Below are positions 190-39,419 of a DNA stretch of 64,000 nt, piece after piece. How positions within the stretch are numbered: position 1 is the first letter of the stretch; each line of letters opens with the position of its first letter. The stretch is from Escherichia coli phage Shin27. A program made the translations under genes and the position numbers. The notes beneath the pieces were generated by a model that had not been told where the DNA came from, ran no database searches, and was given only the letters and a program-made list of their open reading frames with translations. The stretch lies in the sequence record LC788709.1; one strand, given 5' to 3'.

Positions 190-3100
190 CTACGGTAGTT
201 CTGTAATTGTTGGAGCATTTCCGTTAAGCATTGATTTTACAAGGTTTTTCAGTTCATATAACTCATTGCGTAATACGTTAATTTCCTCCTGTTGATTATC
301 AATCTTTGCTTTTTGCTCTTTGAATGCGTTAACAAGAAGTGCGACAACACCATTATAGTTAATGCCTTTGATTGCCTCGCCTTTTGGGTCTAGCTGACCA
401 TCGTTATTCAAAGAATGAACCGCTTCCGGCAAAACCCTTTCAACATCTTGTGCGATCAATCCAGCCTCAATACTATAAACGCTGTTTTCATCTTCAATTA
501 GATTGTTGCGCTTGTAGTAAGTATAACCAGTTAGATAATCAATTTTGTCGGATGCCGTTTCGATCTCTTTTAGATGTGCTTTTAATCTAATGTCAGACCT
601 GCTAACCCAATTTGATGCGCTACCATTTCCAGCACTATCAAAAATAAATTCAGCGCCCTTAACATAAAGATGTGTTTCAGCGCTGCCAGAAGTCCACGGA
701 ACAACATCCATGCCAGCTATCCAATCTTTCCCCCAATAAACAGATTTAAATATGGCAACCGCAGAATCAAATCCAGTGTGCTCAACAAGCAATCCAGACG
801 CACGACTACGCCAGTCGGCAAATGCACCACCCTCAACTTGACCAGCAATAAGAGCGTTTGGATCACCGCGCCTAACTCCATTTACATACATACCCCTTGC
901 GTAATCATCAGCATAAGATGATATGACCCTGTAAGTGTTTATTCCTGATGGAGTCCATGCAAATATTCTCGCTGAATCAGCAAACGCGCTTATGTGACCA
1001 TCACGATCCCATTTAAGACCTGAATCATGATCCCCAATTGCTATAGAGTAATCACCAAGAGCCGATTGAGCATCAGGACTTAATAACATCAATTGCTTAT
1101 CAGATCTTGCTATCCTGTACCATCCACCCCAAGAGCCATTATTGCAAATGATACCCCATTTATTGCCATTCATTGTGGTTGCAACAATATTTCCATACTC
1201 AACATGGCCGTTTGCATTTTTACGGTGAACATGCAATTCATACATCCACCAACCAGAGGCTTCAGGTGGTTGATATGTAACAAGTTCTCCGCTTGAGTAA
1301 TAACCGCTTTCTGCGTATGTTGACATAAACCCAAGAATGTTTGAAGTATCCGGGATGACAATTGCTTGACCACCAACAGGAGTGTTTAAGTTCTTTCTTG
1401 CTCCAACATCACTTGTTGCACCAGTGCCGCCCTGTTGAATTCCAAGAGGAACAAACTGTTGCGTTGCAGTATTCCAATAACCCCAGCCATCATTACCAAC
1501 CGTTAGGTATTTAATTGTATCTGGCGACTGAATAAATGTTTCACCATCACCCTGATTAAACCTGTTAACCTGAAAATTAATTCTCGCTTGAGCAACGTTT
1601 TCAGCACCAGTACCGCCAGCATCAATAGAAAGCGCAGATGTGCTGTTATTGTCATTACGCGTAACGCGCCATTCCCCATTGTTAGCGATCCGTAATTCAT
1701 AAGTCCATGCAGGATTACGAAAAGAATTATAAGCGCCAGCATATTGATCTTTTACAGAATTAACAGCCTCAACTTTTAGCGCCTCCCTTGCAAGGTCTTT
1801 GTTTGCAAGATCATTAAGGTTCTGATCCTTCTTTAACGACGCTTGCATAACCTGTTCTGCTGATGCAGCCGCTGTCTCCGCTCTATCTGCTGCACTGGTG
1901 GCATTAGTAGCTTTCTCTCCTGCTATTGTAGCGCTACCAGCGGCCTCCAGGGCCTTGTCTGTTGCTGTCGTTGCAGCAGTAGTGGCGGTATTTTTAAATA
2001 CCTCTGCTTCGTCTCTGTAGCCTTTGGTTGTGGTCATCGCTTGCGTAGCTGTATTCGCACTACCTGATGCACTTTGCTGAGCTAGCTTAGCAGCGTCTTC
2101 ACTAGCTTTTGAGTTAATTTCACTAGTCTTTGTATTAGTTTCTGAGTTTTTTGCTGCTAATGCTGATGTGGAGGCTTGTGCAGCGAATGCTTCTGCTTCA
2201 TCCCTGAATCCTTTGGAGTCAGAAGCAGAGGCAGCGGAATCAGCAGCATTAGTCTCACTAGTTTTTGCTGCTGCATATGCTGCTGCATTAGTCTCACTAG
2301 TTTTTGCATTAATCTCACTAGTTTTTGCATTAATCTCACTAGTTTTTGCTGCAGCTGATGATTCTTCACTAGTTTTTGCTGCTGCATATGCTGCTGCATT
2401 AGTCTCACTAGTTTTTGCATTAATCTCACTAGTTTTTGCATTAATCTCACTAGTTTTTGCTGCAGCTGATGATTCTATAGCAGTAGTTTCACTAATTTTT
2501 GCTGCAGCTGATGATTCTGCAGCTTTAGTAGCGGATGCAGCAGATTGAGAAGCAGAAATAGCAGACTGAGAAGCAGAAGCTTCAGAAGCTTCAGCAGAAA
2601 TAGCAGATTCATTCTCAGAATTCTTAGCATTAAGTTCTGAAGTCTTAGCAGCTATCTCGGAGTCTTTTGCAGTAGTAGCGTATTCTCCCGCCTCTGTAGC
2701 AGAACCAGCAGCAGCAATAGCCTGATTGGTAGATTCAGTAGCAGATGTAGCAGCATTTTGCTCAGAAGTAGCAGCAGCAGTCTTAGCAGCCTCAGCGTCC
2801 TTCTTAGCTTGTTCAGCTAATAGACGACTCTGTTCAGCATTTTGTGCAGCAAGTTCAGCAGAATCACGGAATCCTTTGGATTCCTCAGCTGACGTAGCAG
2901 AGGCATCAGCACTATCTTTAGATAAACCAGCTTGTCTCTCCGCTTCAGTAGCAGAAGCAGCAGATTGAGTTGCAGAAGTTTCTGAAGAGTTAGCGTAAAT
3001 TGCAGCTAGGTTCTCCGAGTCCTTAGCATTTGTTTCAGATTCTTTTGCTGCAATTTCAGAATCTTTTGCTGCCGCAGCAGAAGCAGCAGAGGCCTCAATA

Positions 3101-26004: not shown

Positions 26005-26033
26005 ATATTTATAAATTAAACAGAGGAACGATT

Positions 26034-26868: not shown

Positions 26869-27062
26869 TGGATTGGTTAGGACTTATTACACTTGTAGTA
26901 TGGATTGTCTGGATTGTTGGATACATGACGTCACATCGTAATCGTATACAGAAGCTAGAGGATAAAGTCACCCAACTAAACATTAATATGGATAAGTTAC
27001 TGGACTCCCAACGTAATGATCGGGCGCGTATTCACCAACTTGAGAGGGAATTAGATGTTTAG
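26868..27062 (+). CDS. small membrane protein with coiled-coil tail
   Basis: 64-aa ORF, N-terminal TM, translationally coupled. Confidence 0.4.
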   Translation: MDWLGLITLVVWIVWIVGYMTSHRNRIQKLEDKVTQLNINMDKLLDSQRNDRARIHQLERELDV

Positions 27063-27300
27063 CTTTGTAGCTATCTTCATTATCGGAGTGCTTGCGGGGA
27101 TCTTCGGAACACTCGGGGCGATTAACAAGCATCGTGAATACGTTGCGGGAATATCGCGGGAGCTTTCGGAAAGGGAGCGGAGGTTTGCGGAGAAACGTGC
27201 GGAGTTTGAGCGGGAGTGGTCGGATGGATCTCGGGCGTCGCGGAGGAGATTTCGTATGTCAGAATCAGGAGACAAGCCGGTAGACCGGTGTTCCTCCTAA
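27055..27300 (+). CDS. small membrane protein with charged coiled-coil tail
   Basis: 81-aa ORF, N-terminal TM, R/E-rich C-terminus. Confidence 0.4.
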   Translation: MFSFVAIFIIGVLAGIFGTLGAINKHREYVAGISRELSERERRFAEKRAEFEREWSDGSRASRRRFRMSESGDKPVDRCSS

Positions 27301-27463
27301 GTTAGCGCTAATTACCAATTCTCGAAATCTCATAAGATTACACATGAAGGTGTGCCCAGAGGTTACCTAGATGAGAATGAGTCTCATTACCGCCCCGGTA
27401 CTTAGCAAGCTAATAGTCACACTATGTGATGATAACATAGTGTGACTATTTTATTTTTAATTG

Positions 27464-28198
27464 TTAGGCGACTTTTAATTTATCAATGAATTGTTGCGGG
27501 CTGCAACTATATTCTGCGCGTTCTTCCTCGGTCATACCTTCCCAACACATTTTTAAACGGTCGGCTAGGAATTGATAATCATTATCATCATCTAATGATT
27601 CATCAATAAAGGTTTCACCGATCAATGTTACGCCGATTGATAGGATATCATTAACGGCTTGAGCGTCCAGCGTTTTAAATCCAGCACTTGCCGCCGCCGA
27701 TAATACGCCTTTATGATCATCAATCATCGTAAAATCAGCGTTCGGATATAACTGTTTAAACAGTTCAAAGTAATAGCTTTTGTATACAGCGTCTTTACTA
27801 TGATATATTTCGCTAACCTTATCCGCTTCAAAGTATTTGTGTAATGTATCGCGAGAGAATACGCGGATATTGCTATTTCCGCGCCCTCGCAAGCCTTGTT
27901 TACGCAAATAAAAGTAATCGCTTTTAGACATAAGGCGCGCGGTACAAATAATATTTAAAGTATTTGCATCATTCATACATTGGCGCATATATTCAACCAA
28001 TGGCAATAAAGAATCCTGCATAATTAAATCATGTTTACAGGCTTCGCGTGAATACTTATTTAAATTTAAATTCCCGTTATCATCAAAGCAAGGCGCTACA
28101 CGGTGGAAAGAATTAATGATAGTTCCGTCTAAGTCCCAAATCATAACGCGGGAAATATGCGGGAAAGCGCGGGCAATATTCAAGGTTACTTGATTCAT
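27464..28198 (-). CDS. dmp: HAD-family 5'-deoxyribonucleotidase (T5 Dmp-like)
   Basis: 244-aa ORF with HAD motif I (IWDLDGTI); size and position next to A1-like gene. Confidence 0.65.
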   Translation of the reverse strand: MNQVTLNIARAFPHISRVMIWDLDGTIINSFHRVAPCFDDNGNLNLNKYSREACKHDLIMQDSLLPLVEYMRQCMNDANTLNIICTARLMSKSDYFYLRKQGLRGRGNSNIRVFSRDTLHKYFEADKVSEIYHSKDAVYKSYYFELFKQLYPNADFTMIDDHKGVLSAAASAGFKTLDAQAVNDILSIGVTLIGETFIDESLDDDNDYQFLADRLKMCWEGMTEEERAEYSCSPQQFIDKLKVA

Positions 28199-28285
28199 TT
28201 GTTACATTCTCCATTTAAGGGATTTAGGTTAATTCAATCTTGCCAGCTAATTATATTGGATTAGCTGGCAATGTTCAATTAACTA

Positions 28286-28678
28286 TTAATTAGTGAGGCC
28301 ATACGCTAGCGCGTCACCAATAAAGCTAATATCTTCACCATGTACGCTAGAACGAATCCCCGCGCAAGTGTAAACCATCGCGCTAGCTTCTGGATTGCAG
28401 ACCGGACACGGCTTAACAACTGCAAACGCTAGACCGGATTTAAGCGCATCAATAATAATTGTTTGCACTGTCAAAGTATCAGCGTAAACGCCTTTTGCTT
28501 TCGTATGGCTTGCCACTTTGCCGGTATCATAAGCAAAGGTAGTAACCTGCAAAGCGTCGTTATAATTCAGCAAATCAAAATTAACTTGCCCCGCCTCGAC
28601 GTGATAACGTTCACCATTAGAATAAACTAGAACGATGGAAGAAGTAGCACGATCAAAAGGAATGTTTTGGTTTTTCAT
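28286..28678 (-). CDS. hypothetical pre-early protein
   Basis: 130-aa ORF between dmp-like and A1-like genes. Confidence 0.4.
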   Translation of the reverse strand: MKNQNIPFDRATSSIVLVYSNGERYHVEAGQVNFDLLNYNDALQVTTFAYDTGKVASHTKAKGVYADTLTVQTIIIDALKSGLAFAVVKPCPVCNPEASAMVYTCAGIRSSVHGEDISFIGDALAYGLTN

Positions 28679-28710
28679 GTTTATGACTCCAGATTATTTA
28701 ATTACGGGAT

Positions 28711-28989
28711 TTATTGAAAAAATACATTTAAAGATAAATCAGTTTTACGAAAATATGTTTCGTCGCCGTCTTTCCTTTCTTGATTAAGGTAATCGCCTGT
28801 CATTACCTGAATATGATCTTTTTCGAAAAAGATCATATTTTCGCCAATATTACTATCCCATACGGCATACATTCCCGCGTACATTCCACGGGTAACTAAA
28901 TAAACGCAACTATCAAAAGACATTTCAGACCATGCAATATCTTCTAAACAATTGCTATCAGGGATAGATATATTAATTTTACTAGCCAT
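28711..28989 (-). CDS. hypothetical pre-early protein
   Basis: 92-aa ORF. Confidence 0.4.
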   Translation of the reverse strand: MASKINISIPDSNCLEDIAWSEMSFDSCVYLVTRGMYAGMYAVWDSNIGENMIFFEKDHIQVMTGDYLNQERKDGDETYFRKTDLSLNVFFQ

Positions 28990-29041
28990 TTAATAAACCT
29001 TTTATTAATGGCGGTATATTTCAACCGCCGATTAAATTTAA

Positions 29042-30706
29042 TTATGCAAAGAATTTACCGTTTTTGAAATCAATCAAAGTACGTTGCCCGTTTGCATAGG
29101 TAATTAAATGCGTTTGCGTCCAGCTTGACGCGCCCACGTTGTAGCCCATATCAAGGGAACCAGCAACGCCAGCGGTATAAACGCCGCCGTAAATGCTAGC
29201 CGTGTGAGTGTGACCAGTGTTAAGGCGTCCCAACTTTTTAAACTGCTTAGGATTGCCCCGACTGCCGTTAATGCCATTGTGACCATGTACGCCGCATTCA
29301 ATGCCAGCGATTTTAAAGGACTGGTCAGTAGTCAAAAAAATGGCGTTAAATTCGCATCCTGCAACGTTTCTAAGCGCATAATCTAACACGTTAAAGGTAT
29401 CATCCTTTTCAGCAATAGCGGCGTAAATCGCAGCGTTTAGACGGTGATACAGTTCCGCGTTTGCGGGATCATCTTTAATGTTTGCGTTACGATCATCTAA
29501 CCAGCGGGATAATGCTAAATCATGGTTAGATTCCACAATGATTGTTTGACTAAAATCACGTTCCATAGATTCTAATACGCGTCCAGTATCGATAAGATCA
29601 TCAATAACTTTATCACGTCCGGCGGCGTATTGTTTCGCAAGGAATACACCACTAGCGCGGTTATGATGGTTACGCGATGTAAAATCATGCACGTCATGAA
29701 TAAATTGATATTTCGGTTTAAGAATATCAAGCAAGCTGTTTTCACTAGCCCATGAAGCGACGGCGCAATCATCATCTAATTTTTCGGCGTGAATATCGCC
29801 ATATTGCAAGCCTAGAACATGATCGGACGTTTCAAAACATCCGGTAGGCATAGCGCAAACATTCAAATCATAGAACATTCCGCTTTCATCCATTGTTTCA
29901 ATCTGGCGAGCATAAAATTCGCCGTCGTCGTCGAACTCTACCAGCAAAGCGCCATAATTATGTAAAGCCTCAGCTTTTTGACCTGCTTTCTGCTGAATGT
30001 AGTTTTTAAGCGTAGCCGTTCCGGTTGAATACATACGGCACACTACTTCACCTTTTAACGCTGGCACACTTTCAGCGGTAATTTTAGCGTGACCAATTGC
30101 CAGACCTTCAATATTTAAAGCCGTGGCGGTTTCTGCGAATCCTGAAAGCGGGTAATCTGCCGTTGGTAAAACGTTAATTTCAGCCATGAAAGCAAAGCGG
30201 CGGTTATTTAAAAATACGTTTTTATCACAAACATATTTATCAAATGCGGGATCGTATTTAATACCGTTTGCCCCTTCCCCGTTCTGAAATCCGTTTTTGT
30301 TGTAAATGAATTTGCTAACAAGTAATTCAGCGCCGCAATATTCAGCGAATTTTTCCAGACTTGCTAAAAAGTTTTTATGCGGGAAAGTATTATTTTGAAT
30401 CGACGTTAGAATAAAACGGCGACCGGACTTAACTTCCCATTGCTCAACGGTGCTAGAAACAATTCCCGCCGCCTCTGGGCGATCATCGTTTTTAATCGCC
30501 TTTTCGGCTTTTGCCGCTTTCGGTTTCGCTGGTTTATTTGCTTCCAGCCAGTCACAAATTGCGGTCGAATGTTTCGGCGTACCATAAACAGCTTTTGAAA
30601 TATCGTCGCAAACTTCCAATTTAGTAGCGCGTAAACGCTTACCGTAGAAGTTAAAATCTGCGGCCATTTTCAAAATTTGAGCTTGTTTTTCTGCGGAAAT
30701 ATTCAT
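29042..30706 (-). CDS. A1: metallophosphoesterase, T5 A1-like (host DNA degradation / second-step transfer)
   Basis: 554-aa ORF with calcineurin-like motifs (GDIHAE, NHD, GHTHT); size matches T5 A1 as recalled. Confidence 0.65.
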   Translation of the reverse strand: MNISAEKQAQILKMAADFNFYGKRLRATKLEVCDDISKAVYGTPKHSTAICDWLEANKPAKPKAAKAEKAIKNDDRPEAAGIVSSTVEQWEVKSGRRFILTSIQNNTFPHKNFLASLEKFAEYCGAELLVSKFIYNKNGFQNGEGANGIKYDPAFDKYVCDKNVFLNNRRFAFMAEINVLPTADYPLSGFAETATALNIEGLAIGHAKITAESVPALKGEVVCRMYSTGTATLKNYIQQKAGQKAEALHNYGALLVEFDDDGEFYARQIETMDESGMFYDLNVCAMPTGCFETSDHVLGLQYGDIHAEKLDDDCAVASWASENSLLDILKPKYQFIHDVHDFTSRNHHNRASGVFLAKQYAAGRDKVIDDLIDTGRVLESMERDFSQTIIVESNHDLALSRWLDDRNANIKDDPANAELYHRLNAAIYAAIAEKDDTFNVLDYALRNVAGCEFNAIFLTTDQSFKIAGIECGVHGHNGINGSRGNPKQFKKLGRLNTGHTHTASIYGGVYTAGVAGSLDMGYNVGASSWTQTHLITYANGQRTLIDFKNGKFFA

Positions 30707-30814
30707 AACTAAATCAACTCCTATAAAGGGATAAATATTAATACTGGCAATATTGCCAAATATAACGCCTTGCCTGAAGTGAGGACAATTTAAAAGGCGT
30801 TATAATTTGCAATA

Positions 30815-31060
30815 TTATTCTAGAATTGGCATAAGACTAGAACTAAAACCGCAACTAATAGCCAGCGTTAAAAATATAATCGCTAGATATTTTTGTTTAT
30901 TAGCTTGACGTTTAAACATATCAGCGGCATAAGCTGAATTAATGCCGATAATAGAGATTATATATTTGCCGTAATTAAATATAAATATAGCGGCAACTAT
31001 AAATAAACCTAAAATAAACGCTTCACTAGGGAAGAAAATCATTTTAATAACTCCGGTCAA
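30815..31060 (-). CDS. small membrane protein
   Basis: 81-aa ORF with two predicted TM helices. Confidence 0.4.
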   Translation of the reverse strand: MTGVIKMIFFPSEAFILGLFIVAAIFIFNYGKYIISIIGINSAYAADMFKRQANKQKYLAIIFLTLAISCGFSSSLMPILE

Positions 31061-31100
31061 AGGGAAATTATAGCGGGGAATATTCCCCGCTAATTAGAAT

Positions 31101-31517
31101 TTATTCACCTGCGGCCTGTTTTACTTCCTCCGCTACGCCTAACAATTGCGCTACGGCGTCCAGCGTTTCCAGTTTAGCACTTTCAAGGCTTGCCAGATCG
31201 TCGGCATCTTTTACGATACCTGAATCAATGGCGTGTTTAGCGATGACGCGCACATAGTGAGCTTTACGAATTGAGCTACCGCCGCCAACTTTGCGAGGTT
31301 TATCGCTTTTCTGATAGGCTTTTGCGCTTGTCAGTTTAGAACGTACAGACACCGGACTAGCAGCACCAACGGCGGCGGCAATTTCTTTCAGGCCGTCACT
31401 GTTAGCAAATTCACTTCCGCTTTTAGCGACCATTTCAGAATACATAGAAACAGCTTTTTCGGTGTTTTCTTCGTTCCAAGAGAATTTTGCGGTTTTTTCG
31501 GTTTTAACGTTAGACAT
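31101..31517 (-). CDS. hypothetical pre-early protein (possible A2 equivalent by size and position)
   Basis: 138-aa ORF immediately upstream of A1-like gene. Confidence 0.35.
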   Translation of the reverse strand: MSNVKTEKTAKFSWNEENTEKAVSMYSEMVAKSGSEFANSDGLKEIAAAVGAASPVSVRSKLTSAKAYQKSDKPRKVGGGSSIRKAHYVRVIAKHAIDSGIVKDADDLASLESAKLETLDAVAQLLGVAEEVKQAAGE

Positions 31518-31805
31518 AATTTAATACTCCATTCAATTATTAATTAAGGGATTATGATTAACTAAATGTTAATCGCTATATATTCTATTAGCTAGAATAT
31601 ATATAACGGAAACATTTTATTTTTATTTCCAGTTTCAAGCGGTTTATTAATTCCCGAATATATTTATATTCTCACCTTACCCGGCTTGCCAGAGAATTAA
31701 TAAGGCAACATTGTATTTATACGCTGTTTATTATTCCGTTCACGCTAGGAATATTTCGAGTTATCTTTATTGCCTAACTAAGCATGATATGTAAGGCGCA
31801 TTAAT

Positions 31806-32057
31806 TTATGCGATAGCTTGCCATTTATCATCTTTCTGAATGATTTTTACAACGTCGCCAGATTTAACACGGACGTTATAAATAGGCTTGCCGTGGTTAC
31901 TGCGTTCCGTTTCCGCATAGACCGCTTCAATCTTATCAAAGGGATCAAGCGCCGCACCTTTAATACGTTCAGCTTTTCCAGTTAATTCATCCGTTTTAGT
32001 AACGAAAGGAATAAAAACGGATTGACCTACTTTCGGTGCGGTGATAACGTTTTGCAT
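31806..32057 (-). CDS. hypothetical protein
   Basis: 83-aa ORF with GGAG RBS. Confidence 0.4.
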   Translation of the reverse strand: MQNVITAPKVGQSVFIPFVTKTDELTGKAERIKGAALDPFDKIEAVYAETERSNHGKPIYNVRVKSGDVVKIIQKDDKWQAIA

Positions 32058-32223
32058 TTTTAATACTCCGGTTTATTGGGGGATTATTCCACAATAGCGC
32101 CTCGATACTTTGAAACGCTATTAGATTATAATCCGCTAGGAGTTAGCCTAAACATTACCGTTTTTCCAAATTGTTAAAGAGCAGTTACTACGGGGAACAT
32201 CTTAAAACCTATCGGCTAGCGTG

Positions 32224-32433
32224 TCAATCGTTTTTTAAACTTTTTTCGATTTGATGGGAGTTATATAAATCAATCATTATATTACGCCACACCATTTCCA
32301 GCCCTTGTTGCTTGCCTTTCTTGTATTGCTTGAATCTGTATTTTACAGATCGTTGCGCTACTGTCAACAAATTTTTTGTTCTGCTATCAAGCGACTTGAT
32401 AGGCTTGCCAGTGATCAAAAGCGTTTGTTTCAT
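32224..32433 (-). CDS. hypothetical basic protein
   Basis: 69-aa ORF with AAGGA RBS, Lys/Arg-rich. Confidence 0.35.
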   Translation of the reverse strand: MKQTLLITGKPIKSLDSRTKNLLTVAQRSVKYRFKQYKKGKQQGLEMVWRNIMIDLYNSHQIEKSLKND

Positions 32434-32840
32434 ATCGTCGATTCCTTATAATATCTAAGTTTACCGCCGATAGGCTTTAAGATGTTCCCTAATTTTTAAA
32501 GAGCATGGCAGGGTTTTGAAAGGTCAAACAGACTGTCAATCGCTGTTATCCCCGCCGTGTAGTTCGTCATTGCCGCCCTACGTGATAAATAATAGGAGAA
32601 TACCGAGAAGGGCGCAAGCGTATTTTTGTAAAGAAACGTAAAGAAAACCACTACTCGCAAACGTCCAGCGGCGCATTAAATTTAATGAAACGGGCGCGCG
32701 AATAACACCAAAACAACCATTTTAGCAAGTAATTTTTTTCATTTATATTTGCTTTGCCATACTTGACAAAATCTAAAATCCTCGTGGTGAGGTTTTCTCG
32801 GTGTATCCCTTATGATTGCCTATCCTTTCCTTTGAGGCGC

Positions 32841-32867
32841 TTAGAATGCGTTACAGAGCGTTTTAGA
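32841..32867. repeat. 27-bp exact direct repeat, copy 1
   Basis: TTAGAATGCGTTACAGAGCGTTTTAGA identical to 37085-37111. Confidence 0.8.
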
Positions 32868-33185
32868 CCCTGTTAATAACTTATACAAAAAGCAAAAATG
32901 AAATTTAATGAGTTATCCACTTGATTTTTCAAAAAAGTATTTTCTGCTGTTATTTTTCATTGACAAATAAGTTTAGACGTGCATTTATTGGTTAGCAGAC
33001 TAATAATCGCTAGGAGGATAATCACGCTGGTGGATTGTAACAGCCGAAACAGTTAGCGGACTATTAATACTTTAAAAACCTATTAGCCAACTAACTATTT
33101 CATAATATATAATATACACATAAATTAATGAGAAATAATAACTATGAGAAACTATCGGGCTAAGTGAGAACCACTATCATTTAGG

Positions 33186-33255
33186 TTATGCACAAAGCTA
33201 TCCACAGCACAAAATAACTTGACGCAATAGGCGACGTTTTGGCGACTTATCCACA
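33186..33255 (+). promoter_or_regulatory. DnaA-box cluster
   Basis: TTATGCACA 33186-33194, cTATCCACA 33198-33206, TTATCCACA 33247-33255. Confidence 0.5.
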
Positions 33256-33295
33256 GACTTATATACAGGTTATCCTACTGTATAAATATACAGGG
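33241..33295. repeat. inverted-repeat arm L (DnaA box + LexA-like box)
   Basis: TTATCCACA at 33247-33255 and TACTGTATAAATATACAG at 33276-33293; reverse-complement partner at 37141-37205. Confidence 0.65.
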
Positions 33296-33543
33296 TAGAA
33301 TGGTAGCAGTAACAACCGCAATCAAATTTAAGCGGCCTAGAACGCGCTACACGGCGTTTTCTCACTGCTACCCTTATTATAATAAAGCCTTGTGTACGCT
33401 TACAGAGAGCTAGAAATAGAAAACGCGCGATTATCATAAAAACGGGCAGTAGGCAAGGAATAAAAAACCTTTTCTTTTTTTCTTGCCCCTAGCGAACAAT
33501 TATCTATATCATTCACTCACCGATTAACGAGGGAGACAAAGAA

Positions 33544-34545
33544 ATGTCTACTGTAAGAATTGCAGTACCAGCAAACGCAACTATTATTAAAGGTAGTTTG
33601 CGCAACCTGCTAGATGGTAGTAGTGCGGCAAGTATTCAGCACACCGCCGCAATGGTTGAAAAAATTCACGAGGATATTTTAGATAATAATGATACTCATT
33701 ATTCAGTCGATGATTTCACGCTATTACTAGACCAGACAAGGGCGCTAGTAATTTTCAACCGTGATTATCACATTTTCCGTAATAGTCAGGGAACTGATAT
33801 TGATTTTATCATTGTTGGTTATAGTGAGTCTCATAGTGGTTACATTGCGCGATTATATAACGTGCAAGAAAAAGAGCAGGTAACAGCAACAAAAGTAAAT
33901 AATATCAGATTGGATAGTGTCGGATCGTTATTAAATAGTATCTGGCGTGAATTATCATCCAGTTATAAAGGTGCTGATAGTGACGCAATCGAAACAACTG
34001 GCGTATTGTGCTTTGAACGCGCTAGCGGTAACATGTTGATCCCTAACGATTATTTAGAGTATGGGAATGAATCAAACGTTGCAAACGCTGGATTTACACT
34101 TTTACCGCTTGACAATGTAGCAAAACAGGCTGTAAACTCTCAAACTTCAAGCGCAAATGCGCAAACTACTGAAAATAAAGGAAATATTATGTCTAAAGTA
34201 TCTTCTATCGTTGCCGCTAATAAATCCGCCGTTGTTAACGCTGCTAAACTGGAAGCGGGTAAAATTGCACTGACTCAAATCACAAAAGTAGCGGCGAAAA
34301 AAGCGCCGTTTATGATTAAAGGTTATATCGATACGCCGATCGGTCGCGTAGTGATCGCTAACCTGTTAAGCGTAGCGGTTGACCAGTACGCCCCGACTAA
34401 TGCGAAAGCGAAAGCGGTAGCAGGCGCGGCAATGGAAGCGGCAATGCTGGAAATGGTACAGAGTTTCAATATTGCGGAAATGATCGATGAAATGGTAAAA
34501 GGTATTGACATTTCTACTTTTACCACTAACACCGAAAGTGAGTAG
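33544..34545 (+). CDS. hypothetical protein, first gene of plus-strand pre-early cassette
   Basis: 333-aa ORF with GAGGGAG RBS; Ala/Lys-rich C-terminal half; no recognisable motif. Confidence 0.55.
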   Translation: MSTVRIAVPANATIIKGSLRNLLDGSSAASIQHTAAMVEKIHEDILDNNDTHYSVDDFTLLLDQTRALVIFNRDYHIFRNSQGTDIDFIIVGYSESHSGYIARLYNVQEKEQVTATKVNNIRLDSVGSLLNSIWRELSSSYKGADSDAIETTGVLCFERASGNMLIPNDYLEYGNESNVANAGFTLLPLDNVAKQAVNSQTSSANAQTTENKGNIMSKVSSIVAANKSAVVNAAKLEAGKIALTQITKVAAKKAPFMIKGYIDTPIGRVVIANLLSVAVDQYAPTNAKAKAVAGAAMEAAMLEMVQSFNIAEMIDEMVKGIDISTFTTNTESE

Positions 34546-34612
34546 TAATAACTAGCGGGGATTATTTCCCCGCGTTACTATTTCCCTGTTAATTGTTAGG
34601 AGACTACTTATT

Positions 34613-34921
34613 ATGCAACTGAATCAAATCATGTTGACGCAATTAGCCGAAAAAATGCCGAATAGCCCCCATGTTAATTATTCGGACGATCAAAGCAATA
34701 TTCCTATATGGGAAAAACAAGGCCGTCCCTTTTTATGGGAACATGTAGAAAGCGCGAATAATTATCATGCTTTCTTTGATCGTGGTTATGGCTGGCTATG
34801 TATTTTTGTAGACGAAACTTTGCTGGATTATGGAATGGATGAAATAGTCCGTGATGACGTAATTTTCTTAAATAAAGGATTTTACAGTGTAGCAAATTCT
34901 CTTTATTTCCCTGCTAATTAA
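34613..34921 (+). CDS. hypothetical protein
   Basis: 102-aa ORF with AGGAG RBS. Confidence 0.5.
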   Translation: MQLNQIMLTQLAEKMPNSPHVNYSDDQSNIPIWEKQGRPFLWEHVESANNYHAFFDRGYGWLCIFVDETLLDYGMDEIVRDDVIFLNKGFYSVANSLYFPAN

Positions 34922-34934
34922 TAGGAGGCTAGTT

Positions 34935-35429
34935 ATGTCAGAAGAAAAATATGGCTTTTCACTAGAAAGTGTGAATGAAGCTAAACACGATATGATAGTT
35001 TTAGTTGATTGTCATACTGGCTATTGCGGGGAAGGCTGGACGGAGGAACATTTTGTTCCCGCTGGCTGTGATCTGGACGCTTTCGCAAACGAACACGCAT
35101 ATGATAATGCTTCTCGTTTCGGTAGTGATGGGGAAGAAGATGAAGAAACAGGGGAATGGATTGAAAATGATAATGTTTATGCGAGTATTTATCATTATCA
35201 ATTGAGTAAATCCGGTATTTATGTAAATGGCGGCGATCCTATTAATACCGTTATGAAACTAATTATTAAACACGGTGGCGCGGAAATAATTGGTAACAAG
35301 GCGTTATTATATGCAAATCGATTAAAACAGCTTGTTTATATTCCTGATAATTCCCGTTGGGATGAATATGCCGTTTTACAGAAAGAACTAAAACGCTGTT
35401 TCGGTGTGGAAGCATTAGAAATAGTCTAA
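34935..35429 (+). CDS. hypothetical acidic protein (DNA-mimic / anti-restriction candidate)
   Basis: 164-aa ORF with TAGGAGG RBS; strongly acidic segment DGEEDEETGEWIENDN. Confidence 0.5.
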   Translation: MSEEKYGFSLESVNEAKHDMIVLVDCHTGYCGEGWTEEHFVPAGCDLDAFANEHAYDNASRFGSDGEEDEETGEWIENDNVYASIYHYQLSKSGIYVNGGDPINTVMKLIIKHGGAEIIGNKALLYANRLKQLVYIPDNSRWDEYAVLQKELKRCFGVEALEIV

Positions 35430-35536
35430 TGTAAAGTTTTGTAAAGGTCGCCTATTATGGCGACCTTTTTTGTTATAATGCCTTTACACCGAAACGGTGG
35501 GTTGAAAATTTTCCCTGATTTCTAGGAGGCGTTAAA

Positions 35537-35764
35537 ATGGTACATTCATCATCTTCTGCAATTTTTAACGGTATGGAATGGGTATCCGTTCCCGCTATTG
35601 TCAGCGTTATGGTTTCTGAGTTCGGCATAGGTAAAACTTATGTTACCATTCAGGGGCTTTACGACAATGACAAGATTGACCAGCAAACCGCCGGATTTTT
35701 GCTGGATGAATTGAAAGCTAACCATTGCACTAAAAAGCAAGCGGCAAAAATTGTTTTAATGTAA
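35537..35764 (+). CDS. hypothetical protein
   Basis: 75-aa ORF with TAGGAGG RBS. Confidence 0.45.
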   Translation: MVHSSSSAIFNGMEWVSVPAIVSVMVSEFGIGKTYVTIQGLYDNDKIDQQTAGFLLDELKANHCTKKQAAKIVLM

Positions 35765-35810
35765 TTAATAAAGGGGGTATATTATCCCCTAATTTCTAGG
35801 AGCTAATAAA

Positions 35811-35960
35811 ATGGTTATTTTTCGATCTATTCTAGCTAGTATCTTGGGCGCTATTTTATCACTGTTTGTAATAGCTTTCGGCGTTAACGTGGTTATTATT
35901 GGAGCAGGTATCGCTGGGTTTTCTTACTTGTTAGGCTGTATGACTGGTAAAGGGGAATAA
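35811..35960 (+). CDS. small membrane peptide
   Basis: 49-aa hydrophobic ORF with TAGGAG RBS; below ORF-track size cutoff. Confidence 0.35.
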   Translation: MVIFRSILASILGAILSLFVIAFGVNVVIIGAGIAGFSYLLGCMTGKGE

Positions 35961-35962
35961 AA

Positions 35963-36175
35963 ATGTTAAAGAATGTTTCCCTTGCCCGTTCTAAAGGTTT
36001 TAAGCTGGTGGATGTTAACACGTTCGAGCGTCCAGATTGTAAAATCGAATATGTAGCACGCAACAAAAACGCTTTCCGTGTTACTGAAAAGAAATTTGAC
36101 AAGCGCGGAAATTTGGTAGCCGAAACGGTTAAACACTTTGCTACTTTTTACGCTGCGTTTCGTGGGGTATTATGA
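35963..36175 (+). CDS. hypothetical protein
   Basis: 70-aa ORF tightly packed after preceding ORF. Confidence 0.45.
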   Translation: MLKNVSLARSKGFKLVDVNTFERPDCKIEYVARNKNAFRVTEKKFDKRGNLVAETVKHFATFYAAFRGVL

Positions 36176-36273
36176 GATCCTTATATATTGCTCTAGCGTT
36201 TGCTACCGTTGGCGTTGTTTGCTCATTCGCTGCATTTGTTCTAAAAATGTACCTGATATTTTCCCAGCTTTAG
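36172..36273 (+). CDS. small membrane peptide
   Basis: 33-aa hydrophobic ORF overlapping previous stop (ATGA). Confidence 0.25.
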   Translation: MRSLYIALAFATVGVVCSFAAFVLKMYLIFSQL

Positions 36274-36284
36274 GAGCTTGACAA

Positions 36285-36632
36285 ATGGTTATTTATGAGG
36301 GTAATCGCTTTGTTACTAATTGCCGTCCGGCATTATTAGCAAACTATTTAAATCAGCTTTCCCCTGTTTATAAAGGCGTGGTTAACATCTATGAAGGCAA
36401 AGCGCACTATAGAATTAATGCCGTTGTCGCTCGCGAGCTTGCCTTTCAGTTTCTTACTTTTAACTCATGCGATATTCAGGTTATGGGTGAGTCTTTGATT
36501 GCAGAAAATGAAGATGAATTTATTAACATTTTCCGCAAAGTATGTACAGAGCGCCTGATTATGAAAGGCGCATATATTCAATCAACCGCTGATAGTATTG
36601 AAACAGCGTTTCGAAAAATTGTAAATGAATAG
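36285..36632 (+). CDS. hypothetical protein
   Basis: 115-aa ORF with TAGGAG RBS. Confidence 0.5.
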   Translation: MVIYEGNRFVTNCRPALLANYLNQLSPVYKGVVNIYEGKAHYRINAVVARELAFQFLTFNSCDIQVMGESLIAENEDEFINIFRKVCTERLIMKGAYIQSTADSIETAFRKIVNE

Positions 36633-36755
36633 CTGGTGGCGTAAAACGCAATCCCATAAATCTAATAATACCGCTGGGAAACATTCCCAGCGTTTACGAT
36701 TTGGGAACGGCTTCACAATGTTAATAATAATCATTCTCATTCTAGGAGCAATGGC

Positions 36756-36995
36756 ATGGCTGTAAGAATTTTACGATATGTAGAACGTAAAGAAACCGAT
36801 ATTATGCAGCATCATTTAACTGATGGGCAATACGCGCAATTTTTAGAAATGCAGAAAAGCGGAGCTAGTACGGCGGCGCTAGGGGCGTGGATCAATTCAG
36901 TTTCAACGTGTACGCATTTTGATTCATACGGGTATACGCCAGCCGAAACCGTCCAGATCTTTGACGACTACGAGAAGGAATACATAGCAGACTAA
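36756..36995 (+). CDS. hypothetical protein, last gene of cassette
   Basis: 79-aa ORF with TAGGAG RBS. Confidence 0.45.
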   Translation: MAVRILRYVERKETDIMQHHLTDGQYAQFLEMQKSGASTAALGAWINSVSTCTHFDSYGYTPAETVQIFDDYEKEYIAD

Positions 36996-37084
36996 TAATA
37001 GCGGGGCGCAACTATCGGCCCCGCCTTTTCTGCCTGCAAACAAATTTCCCCTTATTAAAATACCTCCTCCAAAAATAAACGCGT

Positions 37085-37111
37085 TAGAATGCGTTACAGA
37101 GCGTTTTAGAG
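37085..37111. repeat. 27-bp exact direct repeat, copy 2
   Basis: identical to 32841-32867. Confidence 0.8.
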
Positions 37112-37140
37112 CTATATTAGAGTTATTCACTACGTAGGAA

Positions 37141-37205
37141 TACTGTATATTTATACAGTAGAATAACCTGTGGATAAGTCAGTGGATAACGCCTCAAAAT
37201 CGCTA
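37141..37205. repeat. inverted-repeat arm R (LexA-like box + DnaA boxes)
   Basis: TACTGTATATTTATACAGTA at 37141-37160, TGTGGATAA at 37169-37177. Confidence 0.65.
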
Positions 37206-37251
37206 GGATTTTGTCAAGTCAAATCGTGCTGTTAATAAACCTGTGGATAAC
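37169..37251 (-). promoter_or_regulatory. DnaA-box cluster
   Basis: reverse complement of TTATCCACA at 37169-37177 and 37243-37251, near-match at 37181-37189. Confidence 0.5.
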
Positions 37252-37269
37252 TTAAATAGCAGTGTTTCT

Positions 37270-37420
37270 CACTTCGCTTTCTAAATGCGAATCATTCTCA
37301 TTATGCGACTCATTCGTATTCAATTCTGTAAATGATAATCATTCCCATTCCACTTTCTAAATGCGAGTAGTTCTCATTCGCATTCAACTTCTCAAATGCG
37401 AATCAATCTCATTATCAGTT
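37270..37420. repeat. three copies of ~25-bp motif (CTTTCTAAATGCGAATCATTCTCATT family)
   Basis: copies near 37277, 37344, 37385. Confidence 0.6.
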
Positions 37421-37463
37421 GCATTTCGGCAGGCAGGGCATTTTCTATTTGCCCTGCGCTTTT

Positions 37464-38065
37464 GTGCAAATCCGACATCTGCCCCCACGGATTACGTGCC
37501 AGCGTGCATGTGCGAATCCGACAATTTTTGGTAGTGTGCAAATCCGATGGGAAATATTTTTTATATGTGCGAATCCGACAATGAATTTTCCTAAAAACTC
37601 CAGCAATCCGCAACTGCGATGCAATCCAGCTGGATTTACTAGAGTATGCGCAAATCCGACATGAGTTTATTTGTGCAAAACCGACAAGATTTTTGTGACT
37701 TCGATGAGAGGGTGTGTGATTGTGAGGGTTTGGGGAGAAGTGCGAATCCGATGAGATTTTGGGAGGAACTACGGAAGGAGCAGCGGTGATGGTGCTTTAG
37801 CACCGGTTTGCTGCATTTTTGAGGATAATGCGGGATGTTTTGGCTAGAATTGAGATTAGGGGAGATAAAGCGAAATTTTATTAGCAAAATGGGGCAAAAT
37901 CGCTTGACAAGTGAAAATTCCTGTGGCTCTAAAAAACTCAGGCAAATATGGGCCTTCGGCCCGAAATAATGCTGCTATTTTCAGTGTTCCTAAAAACTTT
38001 GGAGACTCCTATCAATGTGCAAATCCGACCATAAATTTCTAGAAACACAGTGTGCAAATCCGATA
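37464..38065. repeat. dispersed array of ~10 copies of 14-bp motif GTGCRAATCCGAYR
   Basis: copies at 37464, 37510, 37538, 37567, 37648, 37673, 37740, 38017, 38052, degenerate at ~37603; irregular spacing. Confidence 0.75.
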
Positions 38066-38230
38066 GCAATTTCCAGAAATGTGTTTTGGAAAAATGTCTC
38101 CTAGAAATAACCGCCCTCCCTATAACCGCCCTGTATTAAACCGCCTATTGCTGGAGTTTCTAGGAACATGAAAACCGCCTGAGTTGGCGAGAGTTTTCCT
38201 AGAAACTTAGGAGTCTACTAGAAAGTGTTG
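38030..38230. repeat. cluster of TTCTAGAA-type palindromes and AACCGCC repeats
   Basis: TTTCTAGAAAC, TCCTAGAAA, TTTCTAGGAAC, TTCCTAGAAAC plus four AACCGCC copies at 38100-38170. Confidence 0.6.
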
Positions 38231-38528
38231 TGCTATCCTAGCAGATGAGCGGCAACAGGTGTATCATCTTGAACATTAATTTATCTATTCAACAGTATTA
38301 GTTTTTATATAAGTATAAGATCCCCAGGGGATTGTGAGAGATGCTCCACCCCTGGGATACGAATTGCGTGAGATGGTACAAAACTTCTGAAGATTTCCCT
38401 AGCCCTCCGACAAGCTACGGGGGAAATAGAAGTTTCCCATCCACCATCCGTATCCGGGTGGATCTCTTTATTCTATGTTATTTCATAGAGTTATTATAAC
38501 ATGCAGAAATCATAACGTCAAGTAGAGT

Positions 38529-39419
38529 TTATTCATCGAACATGAGATTTCCTTTCATCCCCATCTCCGCATACTCCATGAGTTCTCCTAGGGATCTCAC
38601 AGGGTAATCTACTTTACTGAAGTTATCATAGATCTTACATGAACTCTCGTACAACTCGTTAGGTATCTGCAATTTGTTATCAGTTAGCTTCTCATAACGT
38701 GTAGAAGATTTTGTACCTTCAAACAGAACTGCAATAACTGCGGCGATTTGTTTGGTAAGATCATCTGCTCCTAGAATTATTCTATTAATAGCAATCGTTA
38801 CTTCATGCTTAGGTTTCACAGGTGGAAGGATAGGCTTGAGATCCTTAGGTAAAGGTTCTGTTCCTAGGAATCCTTCTTTTGTGCGGAACCAATAATTATC
38901 TAGATCAGATATTGTCTTAGACTTATTCCATATAGTGAAGCAAGGTTTATTTCCTTCACGATCTCTGTATTCACGAACTGGAAGATAATGATCAGGGAAT
39001 GAGTTGAGTGCATCATGCATTGGTGAGCCTGTCTTTTTAAATGACAAACCGTACAACTCATTATAATTCATAACTTCATCTTCATAAACATGGAAATCTT
39101 TATATGCTGGAAGATTAAACCATTCCTGAAGTGAATGAACTGCAAAACGTTGTGCCCAAGCATGCATCACAAGAACTCTGTACTCTTTTACTTCATCTTT
39201 TGGAGAAGTACCTCTAACTGTTCTAGCTGACCGAATACAGAACATCTCAACAACACGTCTCTCGTTTAAAGAAAGCTCAGAGTAACAACGTTCATGGCAA
39301 CCTTCTAGCATTTCTAGAAGTTCACGTAGTTTCTCTACATCGACCGGTGGAAAAGGTCTCTCTTCCACCGCGAATTTACCAACTACACCTTTCGGCTTTC
39401 TATTACTATAAAATCCCAT
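38529..39419 (-). CDS. hypothetical early protein
   Basis: 296-aa ORF, last gene before the repeat region. Confidence 0.5.
   Translation of the reverse strand: MGFYSNRKPKGVVGKFAVEERPFPPVDVEKLRELLEMLEGCHERCYSELSLNERRVVEMFCIRSARTVRGTSPKDEVKEYRVLVMHAWAQRFAVHSLQEWFNLPAYKDFHVYEDEVMNYNELYGLSFKKTGSPMHDALNSFPDHYLPVREYRDREGNKPCFTIWNKSKTISDLDNYWFRTKEGFLGTEPLPKDLKPILPPVKPKHEVTIAINRIILGADDLTKQIAAVIAVLFEGTKSSTRYEKLTDNKLQIPNELYESSCKIYDNFSKVDYPVRSLGELMEYAEMGMKGNLMFDE

What the first reader, a model, noticed from the sequence alone, without database searches (positions are those of the whole stretch)
37260..38230. Dense multi-family short-repeat region at the junction with the early genes
About 10 copies of GTGCRAATCCGAYR, three copies of an AAATGCGA...TCTCATT motif, several TTCTAGAA palindromes and four AACCGCC repeats sit in roughly 1 kb with no credible ORF. 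The T5 injection-stop region at the end of the first-step-transfer DNA is described as repeat- and palindrome-rich, so this may be the equivalent, or a set of binding sites or a replication origin.
Basis: partly seen in the sequence, partly recalled or inferred. Interest (0 to 1): 0.6.

Follow-up and report, generated by a model that had tools for sequence, protein, structure and literature searches.

The report
T5-type injection-stop repeat region
This gene-free, repeat-packed stretch is the counterpart of the long-known "injection stop signal" region of phage T5, at the right edge of the terminal repeat of a T5-like phage, so it is real and conserved but already described.

Summary
The repeats are real and far beyond chance. 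There are 9 same-strand copies of GTGCRAATCCGAY (0.06 expected), 3 AAATGCGA..TCTCATT units and 4 AACCGCC. Exact TTCTAGAA occurs only once, but a wider CTARAAACT family is present. None of the 11 ORFs of 43 aa or more is conserved.

The region is collinear, element for element, with T5 "Repeat Region 3". That region is annotated in T5 GenBank records as direct repeats C and D, palindromes C-J, the 7.9% nick and "injection stop signal (iss)". BF23, which also injects in two steps, has it too.

The window holds a collapsed ~10.6 kb terminal repeat, 27354-37929, with dmp, A1 and A2. The finding lies in the 1.5 kb gap between the pre-early and early genes.

- Terminal repeat end: four independent mappings place the physical right end inside the finding, at 37929|37930. 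It lies in a 110-bp conserved block and within one CTARAAACT-type copy.
- D-repeats: they bracket this end in four phage lineages. Their core is invariant while spacing and copy number change, which suggests protein-binding sites.
- Missed module: the paired DnaA boxes, the favoured iss candidate, start at 37141, just left of the finding.

Novelty: already known. The mechanism remains untested in any T5-like phage.

The parts
27354..37929 (.). Terminal repeat (single collapsed copy, ~10.6 kb) carrying the pre-early genes dmp (27464-28198 -), A1 (29042-30706 -) and A2 (31101-31517 -)
   Evidence: The left end maps to position 1 of Sw2 and T5. The right end maps to 37929 from T5 AY587007 10139, T5 NC_005859 10219, Sw2 9816 (PhageTerm) and BF23 9743 (PhageTerm). 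Gene identities come from PHROG.
33159..33293 (.). IRC-spacer-IRD, the inverted partner of the arm at 37143-37277, with two pairs of DnaA-type boxes
   Evidence: 135 nt, 75% complementary, 3849 nt apart. Sequence read.
37002..37028 (+). GC-rich hairpin plus T-run that ends the last pre-early operon (position of T5 palindrome C / terminator)
   Evidence: Sequence. Mapping of the T5 terminator 9275-9296 to 37002-37028.
37084..37110 (.). 27-nt direct repeat TTAGAATGCGTTACAGAGCGTTTTAGA, with a perfect second copy at 32841-32867
37141..37160 (.). Palindrome D (TACTGTATATTTATACAGTA)
   Evidence: Mapping from the T5 annotation. Conservation 0.93 over 17 relatives.
37143..37277 (.). IRD'-spacer-IRC' inverted-repeat arm, the main published candidate for the stop signal
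   Evidence: Conservation 0.85-0.96.
37169..37189 (-). DnaA-box pair 1: TGTGGATAA gtc AGTGGATAA (a consensus box and a 1-mismatch box, 3 bp apart)
   Evidence: Arrangement as described for T5-like phages in bioRxiv 10.1101/866236.
37230..37250 (-). DnaA-box pair 2: TGTTAATAA acc TGTGGATAA
37279..37420 (.). Direct repeat C units. Each holds an imperfect palindrome AATGCGA-N6-TCTCATT, with cores at 37283-37302, 37359-37378 and 37394-37413 and a degenerate unit at 37326-37342. The nominal T5 shear point 9618 maps to 37401.
37433..37457 (.). Palindrome J (GCAGGGCA...TGCCCTGC); the stem is kept and the loop is longer than in T5
37452..37460 (-). Sequence of the T5 major single-strand interruption (7.9% nick), CCCTGCGC|TTTT, 4 nt before the first D-repeat
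   Evidence: T5 annotations map here. Conservation 0.93-1.0. The nick itself is not testable from sequence.
37463..37477 (+). Direct repeat D copy 1 (TGTGCAAATCCGACA)
   Evidence: Conservation 1.0.
37509..37523 (+). Direct repeat D copy 2
   Evidence: 0.95
37535..37549 (+). Direct repeat D copy 3
   Evidence: 0.86
37566..37580 (+). Direct repeat D copy 4
   Evidence: 0.85
37647..37661 (+). Direct repeat D copy 5 (one mismatch, GCGC)
   Evidence: 0.87
37672..37686 (+). Direct repeat D copy 6 (one mismatch, AAAACC)
   Evidence: 0.76
37739..37753 (+). Extra, lineage-specific D-repeat copy (absent from T5)
   Evidence: Conservation only 0.31.
37650..37900 (+). G/T-rich stretch, GC skew +0.4 to +0.65: the top strand of the last ~280 nt before the repeat end
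   Evidence: Also G-rich in My1.
37585..37607 (.). Left arm of a 23-nt inverted repeat (91% complementary) whose right arm is 38147-38169. The pair brackets the end of the terminal repeat.
   Evidence: Both arms are conserved in T5 and Sw2.
37870..37980 (.). Strongly conserved non-repetitive block spanning the physical right end of the terminal repeat (...TTGACAAGTGAAAATTCCTGTGGCTC|TAAAAAACTC..., cut at 37929|37930)
   Evidence: Conservation 0.82-0.95. Six full-length relatives' records end at or within 1 nt of the aligned position. Four mapped repeat ends.
37928..37940 (+). CTARAAACT-family copy that contains the repeat end (window: TCTAAAAAACTC, one extra A; relatives: YC|TAAAAACTC)
   Evidence: In about 20 relatives an exact motif copy sits at D-repeat 1 +463..465, which is the repeat end.
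37950..37962 (.). Hairpin GGGCC-TTC-GGCCC, 21 nt outside the repeat end
   Evidence: Conservation 0.93.
38016..38030 (+). Direct repeat D copy 7 of T5 (outside the terminal repeat)
   Evidence: 0.92
38051..38065 (+). Direct repeat D copy 8 of T5 (outside the terminal repeat). T5 copy 9 is deleted here.
   Evidence: 0.89
37987..38224 (.). CTARAAACT / TTCTAGAA family, both orientations: 37989+, 38036-38046 (the only exact TTCTAGAA), 38071, 38100, 38154-, 38198+ and 38218. A perfect 12-nt inverted pair lies at 38155-38166 / 38196-38207.
38109..38179 (+). Four AACCGCC(C) repeats (38109, 38124, 38139, 38173; spacing 15, 15, 34)
   Evidence: Conservation 0.8-0.9. Present in T5, BF23, My1 and Klebsiella phages.

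Best explanation
This is the counterpart, in an Epseptimavirus-like T5 relative, of T5 'Repeat Region 3', the injection-stop (iss) region. It is a 1.5-kb gene-free cis-acting region between the pre-early genes and the early genes, spanning the right end of the ~10.6-kb terminal repeat. It has three modules. (1) Left module, 37141-37460, rich in palindromes. It holds a 135-nt inverted-repeat arm with two pairs of DnaA-type boxes, the AATGCGA..TCTCATT units, palindrome J and the conserved nick sequence. This is the DNA at the end of the first-step-transfer segment and the most likely stop signal. The leading 8-9% of the genome enters the cell and transfer halts here. The likely cause is that this segment is held by a host protein at the membrane (DnaA is the published candidate) and/or adopts a structure, or jams at the nick. 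Transfer resumes once the pre-early proteins A1 and A2 are made. (2) Middle module, 37463-37930: same-strand, unstructured D-repeats with extended consensus T-GTGCRAATCCGAY-A-N4-TTT. These are most likely iterated binding sites for one sequence-specific protein. (3) The physical end of the terminal repeat, at 37929|37930 inside a 110-bp conserved block, followed outside the repeat by more D-repeats, CTARAAACT-type palindromes and AACCGCC repeats. This part most likely serves genome-end formation during packaging. Shown here: homology, anatomy, conservation, and the position of the repeat end. Inferred: every functional step.
For: Collinear alignment with T5 and Sw2; every T5-annotated element maps to a window counterpart except D-repeat copy 9, which is deleted here. 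The T5 RefSeq 'iss' feature, nick and repeat end also map. 518-544 T5-like phage records match the region. BF23 has the same set, and its PhageTerm repeat end maps to 37929. dmp, A1 and A2 lie upstream, and the receptor-binding protein gene lies just left of the repeat. The inverted partner arm with DnaA-type boxes is at 33159-33293. The D-repeat is enriched about 150-fold. D-repeat cores are better conserved than their spacers (0.88 against 0.72, permutation p = 0.0016). The core is exact in Pectobacterium phage My1 and in Klebsiella Sugarlandvirus phages, although spacing and copy number differ. D-repeats bracket the annotated repeat end in T5, BF23/Sw2, My1 and IME260. Folding as single-stranded DNA gives z = -3.2 for the left module, +0.6 for the D-repeat array and -3.4 for the right module. 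Six full-length records end at or within 1 nt of the aligned position. Literature: bioRxiv 10.1101/866236; PMC2771126 reports in-vitro ejection pauses at nick positions.
Against: No functional experiment exists for any of these repeats in any T5-like phage (PMC10644984; PMC13250531). The first-step boundary is known only as about 7.9-8% of the genome, so it cannot be said which repeats are inside the cell at the pause. DnaA-type 9-mers are not enriched in the window overall (8 found, 7.8 expected); only their paired clustering is notable. Purified receptor triggers complete ejection in vitro (cited), so the DNA alone does not give an absolute stop. No binding protein for the D-repeats could be named: A2 has no Pfam or PDB relative. 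A viable T5 mutant lacking genes hegG to 017 may lack the partner arm, which would make the two-arm model unnecessary; the exact deletion limits were not checked.
Confidence: 0.85

Rival explanations
1. The D-repeats, the conserved block at 37870-37980 and the CTARAAACT and AACCGCC elements are mainly the genome-end (packaging / terminase) signal, not part of the injection stop. On a concatemer, the packaging enzyme would bind the iterated sites on both sides, cut at 37929|37930, and fill the head leftward. The right end would go in first because the left end comes out first. This can coexist with an injection stop in the left module.
For: The repeat end lies inside the finding. It sits in the best-conserved non-repetitive block and within one CTARAAACT-type copy in about 20 relatives. 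D-repeats bracket the end in four phage lineages. Right genome ends are strongly conserved while left ends are not. A 23-nt inverted repeat brackets the end. Own knowledge, not tested here: T7 has short-repeat arrays flanking its terminal repeat, and SPP1 has terminase-binding sites on both sides of its cut.
Against: No data on T5 packaging signals were found. The packaging direction is inferred only from the last-in-first-out rule. No comparable repeat cluster lies at the left end of the repeat. The CTARAAACT motif is absent from My1 and only its A-run variant is present in IME260. IME260's annotated end lies 20 nt to the right of the T5-type position.
Confidence: 0.35
2. The stop is intrinsic to the virion. 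The conserved single-strand nick at 37459|37460, possibly with the adjacent palindromes, makes the DNA jam in the connector or tail. The repeats are then secondary.
For: The nick sequence and the first D-repeat are the most conserved 25 nt of the region (0.93-1.0). The nick maps at 7.9%, the same figure as the first-step DNA. In-vitro single-particle ejection pauses at nick positions (PMC2771126).
Against: Many particles eject without pausing, and ejection completes in vitro. The other major nicks do not cause an A1/A2-dependent arrest. From my own memory, not checked here, nick-deficient T5 mutants are viable. In My1 the CTGCGC motif does not abut the first D-repeat. This reading does not explain why about 1.3 kb of repeats is conserved.
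Confidence: 0.15
3. The region is a replication origin: DnaA boxes plus iteron-like D-repeats.
For: Four DnaA-type boxes lie within 82 bp, four more lie in the partner arm, and there are nine iteron-like direct repeats.
Against: T5 origins were mapped by electron microscopy near the middle of the genome, and the replication genes arrive only with the second step (cited in bioRxiv 10.1101/866236). No AT-rich unwinding element adjoins the boxes; GC is 0.34-0.37 there against 0.40 overall. The region would be present twice per genome, at the extreme ends.
Confidence: 0.05
4. The region is only a buffer between convergent operons, holding terminators, or it hides small genes or a non-coding RNA.
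For: A terminator-type hairpin ends the pre-early operon at 37002-37028. Terminator-like sites on the - strand lie at 38332-38320 and 38190-38175. A strong promoter-like site at 38521-38493 points leftward.
Against: Promoter-like sites are not above shuffle expectation (7 against 5.5). There is no Rfam match. No ORF is conserved. The conserved elements are repeats and palindromes, which a spacer would not need to keep across four phage lineages.
Confidence: 0.05

Closest known systems
Phage T5 injection stop signal region, 'Repeat Region 3' (AY587007 9194-10409; NC_005859 'iss' 9140-10149; Heusterspreute et al. 1987 as cited; Davison, bioRxiv 10.1101/866236)
   Same: Same position between the pre-early and early genes across the right end of the terminal repeat. 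Same order of elements: palindrome D, IRD'-spacer-IRC' with paired DnaA boxes, direct repeats C, palindrome J, nick sequence, direct repeats D1-8, repeat end, and AACCGCC. The window is 71-75% identical to T5-type relatives over about 1.45 kb of aligned sequence. The inverted partner arm lies about 3.8 kb upstream.
   Different: One extra D-repeat (37739), and T5 copy 9 is deleted. There are three full C units plus one degenerate unit instead of four. Palindrome J has a longer loop. There is one extra A at the repeat end. Both boxes at 37169 and 37242 are consensus, whereas T5 has one consensus box.
Phage BF23 non-coding region at the first-step / second-step border (OR083247, 8.6-10.3 kb; PMC10644984)
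   Same: 8 D-repeats, 4 AACCGCC, 4 AAATGNGA units, the nick motif, and a repeat end at the same aligned base.
   Different: 74% identity. BF23 belongs to Tequintavirus, whereas the window is closest to Epseptimavirus-type Salmonella and Escherichia phages (93-97%).
Chromosomal origin-type DnaA box clusters (E. coli oriC)
   Same: Closely spaced DnaA-type 9-mers, two of the four perfect TTATCCACA.
   Different: No unwinding element or other origin features were seen. T5 origins map elsewhere. The published proposal is DNA capture by membrane-bound DnaA, not replication initiation.
Terminal-repeat junctions and packaging sites of other phages (T7 repeat arrays beside the terminal repeat; SPP1 pac with binding sites on both sides of the cut): own knowledge, not tested here
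   Same: Arrays of short direct repeats flank a precisely cut genome end.
   Different: No sequence similarity was sought or found. The T5 repeat is 10 kb against 160 bp in T7. No biochemical data exist for T5.

Membership tests
T5-type injection-stop region (Repeat Region 3) | Gene-free region between the last pre-early operon and the first early genes, spanning the right end of the long terminal repeat | tested here: met
   The gap runs 36996-38528. No ORF is conserved. The repeat end is at 37929. dmp, A1 and A2 lie upstream.
T5-type injection-stop region (Repeat Region 3) | Collinear sequence homology with T5 9194-10409 | tested here: met
   Alignment A1, feature mapping, and 256-396 phage records covering at least 80% of the query.
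T5-type injection-stop region (Repeat Region 3) | IRD'-spacer-IRC' arm with two pairs of DnaA-type boxes 3 bp apart, and an inverted partner arm upstream | tested here: met
   Arms at 37143-37277 and 33159-33293, 135 nt, 75% complementary. Boxes read.
T5-type injection-stop region (Repeat Region 3) | Direct repeats C (palindromic AAATGNGA..TCTCATT units) followed by the nick sequence CCCTGCGC | tested here: met
T5-type injection-stop region (Repeat Region 3) | Array of about nine direct repeats D (TGTGCRAATCCGAYA) on one strand | tested here: met
   9 copies in the region against 0.06 expected for the whole window. T5-like spacing of 46, 26, 31, 81, 25.
T5-type injection-stop region (Repeat Region 3) | DNA transfer actually pauses here until A1 and A2 are made | not testable with these tools
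   Needs infection experiments. Not mapped at nucleotide level even in T5.
T5-type injection-stop region (Repeat Region 3) | A single-strand interruption is present at the conserved site in virion DNA | not testable with these tools
   Only the sequence motif can be seen (37452-37459).
DnaA-dependent replication origin | A cluster of DnaA boxes next to an AT-rich unwinding element, at the mapped site of initiation | tested here: not met
   The boxes are present, but no adjacent AT-rich element was seen. T5 origins are reported mid-genome.
Packaging / terminus-formation site of a phage with exact terminal repeats | Contains the physical genome end | tested here: met
   37929|37930
Packaging / terminus-formation site of a phage with exact terminal repeats | Bound and cut by the phage terminase | not testable with these tools
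   No biochemical data were found.
Known RNA families (Rfam 15) | Match at or above the gathering score | tested here: not met
   Best E-values were 0.63 and 0.68, both to eukaryotic families and far below their thresholds.

The most novel reading that the evidence does not exclude
The D-repeat iterons and the CTARAAACT family are not part of the injection stop at all. Instead they are the hitherto undefined packaging-initiation and end-cutting signal of T5-like phages. The cut falls inside one CTARAAACT copy, in a conserved block bracketed by iterons on both sides. The true stop signal would then be confined to the DnaA-box and palindrome module left of the nick.
Probability: 0.3. Interest if true: 0.5.

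Novelty: already known. Interest (0 to 1): 0.2.

Why it matters
How T5 halts DNA entry after 8% of its genome has been an open question for over fifty years, and this region is the accepted candidate. The window adds one more natural variant but no new kind of element. Two points from the comparison could help design experiments. First, the region has three modules with different properties: palindromic, unstructured iterons, and palindromic again. Second, the physical end of the terminal repeat lies between the iterons, in a conserved block, so mutations intended to test the stop signal may instead hit genome-end formation.

Tried and rejected
- Rfam at a permissive threshold gave nothing credible.
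- The promoter scan was not above shuffle expectation. The TTGACA at 37905 has no acceptable -10 hexamer (and my reading of the sequence).
- Hidden genes: ORFs are not conserved and have no PHROG hits.
- Naming the D-repeat binding protein failed. A2 has no Pfam or PDB relative. From memory, the motif did not convincingly fit the CRP, Fis, IHF or LacI-family consensus sequences; this was not a formal test.
- A shared cut-site motif at the left and right ends of the repeat: only a weak resemblance (CCT.TGG), and the left ends differ between records, so this was dropped.
- The Serratia phage Kamaji hit was the other inverted-repeat arm, between divergent operons, not this region, so it was not used.
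- Helical phasing of the D-repeats: the spacings of 46, 26, 31, 81, 25 and 67 show no common period.
- Literature searches on T5 packaging signals and on Chi sites in T5 found nothing relevant.
- Davison's 2015 review was not held in the library.
- Searches were input errors.

Full report
**Observation.**

- GTGCRAATCCGAY, allowing one mismatch, occurs 10 times in the 64-kb window against 0.06 expected. Nine copies lie between 37464 and 38064, all on the + strand, and the tenth is at 45998.
- The AAATGCGA..TCTCATT unit occurs three times.
- AACCGCC occurs four times, at 38109-38179.
- Exact TTCTAGAA occurs only once. A looser family, YCTARAAACTY, has 4 of its 6 exact window copies here.
- The interval between the stop codon at 36995 (+) and the stop codon at 38529 (-) is 1.5 kb.
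- Of 11 ORFs of 43 aa or more, ten are intact in 0 or 1 of 17 relatives and one in 4 of 17. The two longest have no PHROG hit.
- Rfam gives nothing, and promoter-like sites are not above shuffle expectation.

**Identity.**
Megablast finds 518 phage records, nearly all T5-like Salmonella, Escherichia and Klebsiella phages, with the best at 93%. The window aligns collinearly with T5 and with Salmonella phage Sw2. T5 record AY587007 annotates this stretch element by element: palindromes C-J, inverted repeats D' and C', direct repeats B, C1-4, D1-9 and A2-3, and 'major single-stranded nick 1, 7.9%'. Each element except D-repeat copy 9 maps to a window counterpart.

The T5 RefSeq record annotates 'injection stop signal (iss)' at 9140-10149. 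This maps to about 36873-37859 in the window. Its nick maps to 37459|37460.

Davison (bioRxiv 10.1101/866236) calls this stretch Repeat Region 3. He describes the same three repeat classes and the paired DnaA boxes in 25 T5-like phages.

BF23, the other phage known to inject in two steps, has 8 D-repeats, 4 AACCGCC, 4 C-type units and the nick motif.

**Context.**
Upstream lie dmp, A1 ('DNA transfer protein') and A2 ('DNA binding protein'). Left of those is the receptor-binding tail protein gene. Position 1 of Sw2 and of T5 aligns to window 27354 and 27353 respectively. The window therefore holds one collapsed copy of a ~10.6-kb terminal repeat, 27354-37929, in a circularly permuted assembly.

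The 135-nt arm at 37143-37277 has its inverted partner at 33159-33293. Each arm carries two pairs of DnaA-type boxes 3 bp apart. The finding's left limit (37260) cuts through this arm.

**What the comparison adds.**

*(a) The repeat end lies inside the finding.* Four mappings place the right end of the terminal repeat at window 37929: T5 10139, T5 RefSeq 10219, Sw2 9816 (PhageTerm) and BF23 9743 (PhageTerm). Six full-length relatives' records end at or within 1 nt of the aligned position...TTGACAAGTGAAAATTYCTGTGGCYC. So the finding contains the physical genome end. Its last 300 bp (two D-repeats, the CTAGAAA elements and AACCGCC) lie outside the repeat and are present once per genome.

*(b) Conservation profile.* Over 17 relatives, conservation peaks at these places:

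| Element | Window position | Conservation |
|---|---|---|
| DnaA-box arm | 37143-37277 | 0.85-0.96 |
| Nick sequence plus D-repeat 1 | about 37450-37477 | 0.93-1.0 |
| D-repeats 2-3 | 37509-37549 | 0.86-0.95 |
| Non-repetitive block spanning the repeat end | 37870-37980 | 0.82-0.95 |
| D-repeats 7-8 | 38016-38065 | 0.89-0.92 |
| AACCGCC | 38109-38179 | 0.8-0.9 |

Conservation is low at 37740-37850.

*(c) The D-repeat core is under selection.* D-repeat cores are better conserved than their spacers (0.88 against 0.72, permutation p = 0.0016). An extended consensus appears: T-GTGCRAATCCGAY-A-N4-TTT. The core is exact in Pectobacterium phage My1 and in Klebsiella Sugarlandvirus phages, where spacing and copy number differ. 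In T5, BF23/Sw2, My1 and IME260 the copies bracket the annotated repeat end. In IMG/VR, multi-copy clusters occur only in contigs of 95-123 kb, almost all of them 104-123 kb, the size of T5-like genomes.

*(d) Three modules by folding.* Folded as single-stranded DNA, 37130-37470 gives z = -3.2, the D-repeat array 37460-37930 gives z = +0.6, and 37930-38240 gives z = -3.4. The array behaves as plain binding sites, and its flanks as palindrome clusters.

*(e) The cut falls in a motif copy.* In about 20 relatives, an exact CTARAAACT-family copy sits at the repeat end (YC|TAAAAACTC). The window copy has one extra A. A 23-nt inverted repeat (37585-37607 / 38147-38169) brackets the end.

*(f) End asymmetry.* Right genome ends are strongly conserved and left ends are not.

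**Mechanism.**
Nothing here has been tested functionally in any T5-like phage (PMC10644984; PMC13250531). My preferred reading is modular.

- The left module is the stop signal. The published proposal is capture by membrane-bound DnaA, with A1 and A2 needed to resume.
- The conserved nick may contribute, because in-vitro ejection pauses at nick positions (PMC2771126).
- The D-repeats are iterated sites for one sequence-specific protein. I could not name it: A2 has no Pfam or PDB relative.
- The conserved block at the repeat end, with its flanking elements, most likely serves genome-end formation.

A packaging role for the D-repeats themselves is a serious rival, which I put at about 0.35. It is not exclusive of a stop signal in the left module. 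It rests on position, and on the inference that the right end is packaged first because the left end is ejected first.

A replication origin is unlikely. T5 origins map mid-genome, and no unwinding element adjoins the boxes.

A viable T5 mutant lacking genes hegG to 017 (bioRxiv 10.64898/2026.04.02.716235) suggests that much of the DNA between the two arms, and possibly the partner arm itself, is dispensable. I did not verify the deletion limits.

**Verdict.**
The feature is already known and is annotated in the reference genome of the family. Interest is low for the scan. The modular anatomy and the position of the repeat end inside the region are worth keeping in mind for anyone designing stop-signal mutants.

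Noticed in passing
window 33026, 36004, 36632 (+ strand) and 41904 (- strand): There are four Chi octamers (GCTGGTGG) against 0.9 expected. The three on the + strand lie in the right third of the terminal repeat, 1.3, 1.9 and 4.9 kb from its right end. They are oriented to be recognised by RecBCD entering from the right genome end. In most of the relatives with enough upstream sequence, 1-3 Chi(+) sites lie 0.65-1.75 kb left of D-repeat 1, and there are almost no Chi(-) sites. They occur in at least four different sequence contexts. In one context the octamer is invariant while flanking wobble positions vary. The held library had no paper on this.
   Followed up: partly
window 27369-27397: A C-repeat-like palindrome (ATGAGA-atgag-TCTCAT) lies 17 nt inside the left genome end. 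It is present in Sw2 but not in T5. It is followed by ACCGCCCC, which is conserved in T5 and Sw2 and resembles the AACCGCC repeats outside the right end.
   Followed up: partly
window 38521-38493 (- strand): This is the best sigma-70-like site of the area (TTGACG-17-TATAAT, with TG). It lies just after the stop codon of the last early gene and points leftward into the non-coding region. T5 has TTGACA-17-TATCAT at the aligned place. The stretch it would transcribe (38330-38480) is poorly conserved.
   Followed up: partly
window 45998-46010 and 39909-39923: An exact D-repeat core lies inside the - strand ORF 45437-46027. A degenerate copy (GTGCAAAAACGAC) lies inside ORF 39419-40030. Several relatives carry an exact copy at about that place, about 1.8 kb right of D-repeat 8.
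   Followed up: partly
window 37650-37900: GC skew is strongly positive (+0.4 to +0.65), so the top strand of the last ~280 nt before the right genome end is G/T-rich. This also holds in Pectobacterium phage My1, where the stretch even contains a Chi octamer.
   Followed up: no
window 32841-32867 and 37084-37110 (weaker copy at 33337-33363): A perfect 27-nt direct repeat, TTAGAATGCGTTACAGAGCGTTTTAGA, lies a short distance upstream of each of the two inverted-repeat arms. It is conserved in T5 and Sw2 at the second site.
   Followed up: no
window 24169-27353 / 27354: The receptor-binding tail protein gene and small downstream ORFs run directly into the left end of the terminal repeat. The source record is therefore a circularly permuted assembly with the two terminal repeats collapsed into one.
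   Followed up: yes
L114 / L129 (Klebsiella phage IME260, record position 10277): The annotated terminal-repeat end of IME260 lies 20 nt to the right of the conserved ...TTCCTGTGGCTC|TAAAAAAC position used by T5, BF23 and Sw2, although IME260 has that motif. This is either a real shift of the cut or a difference in how the ends were determined.
   Followed up: no
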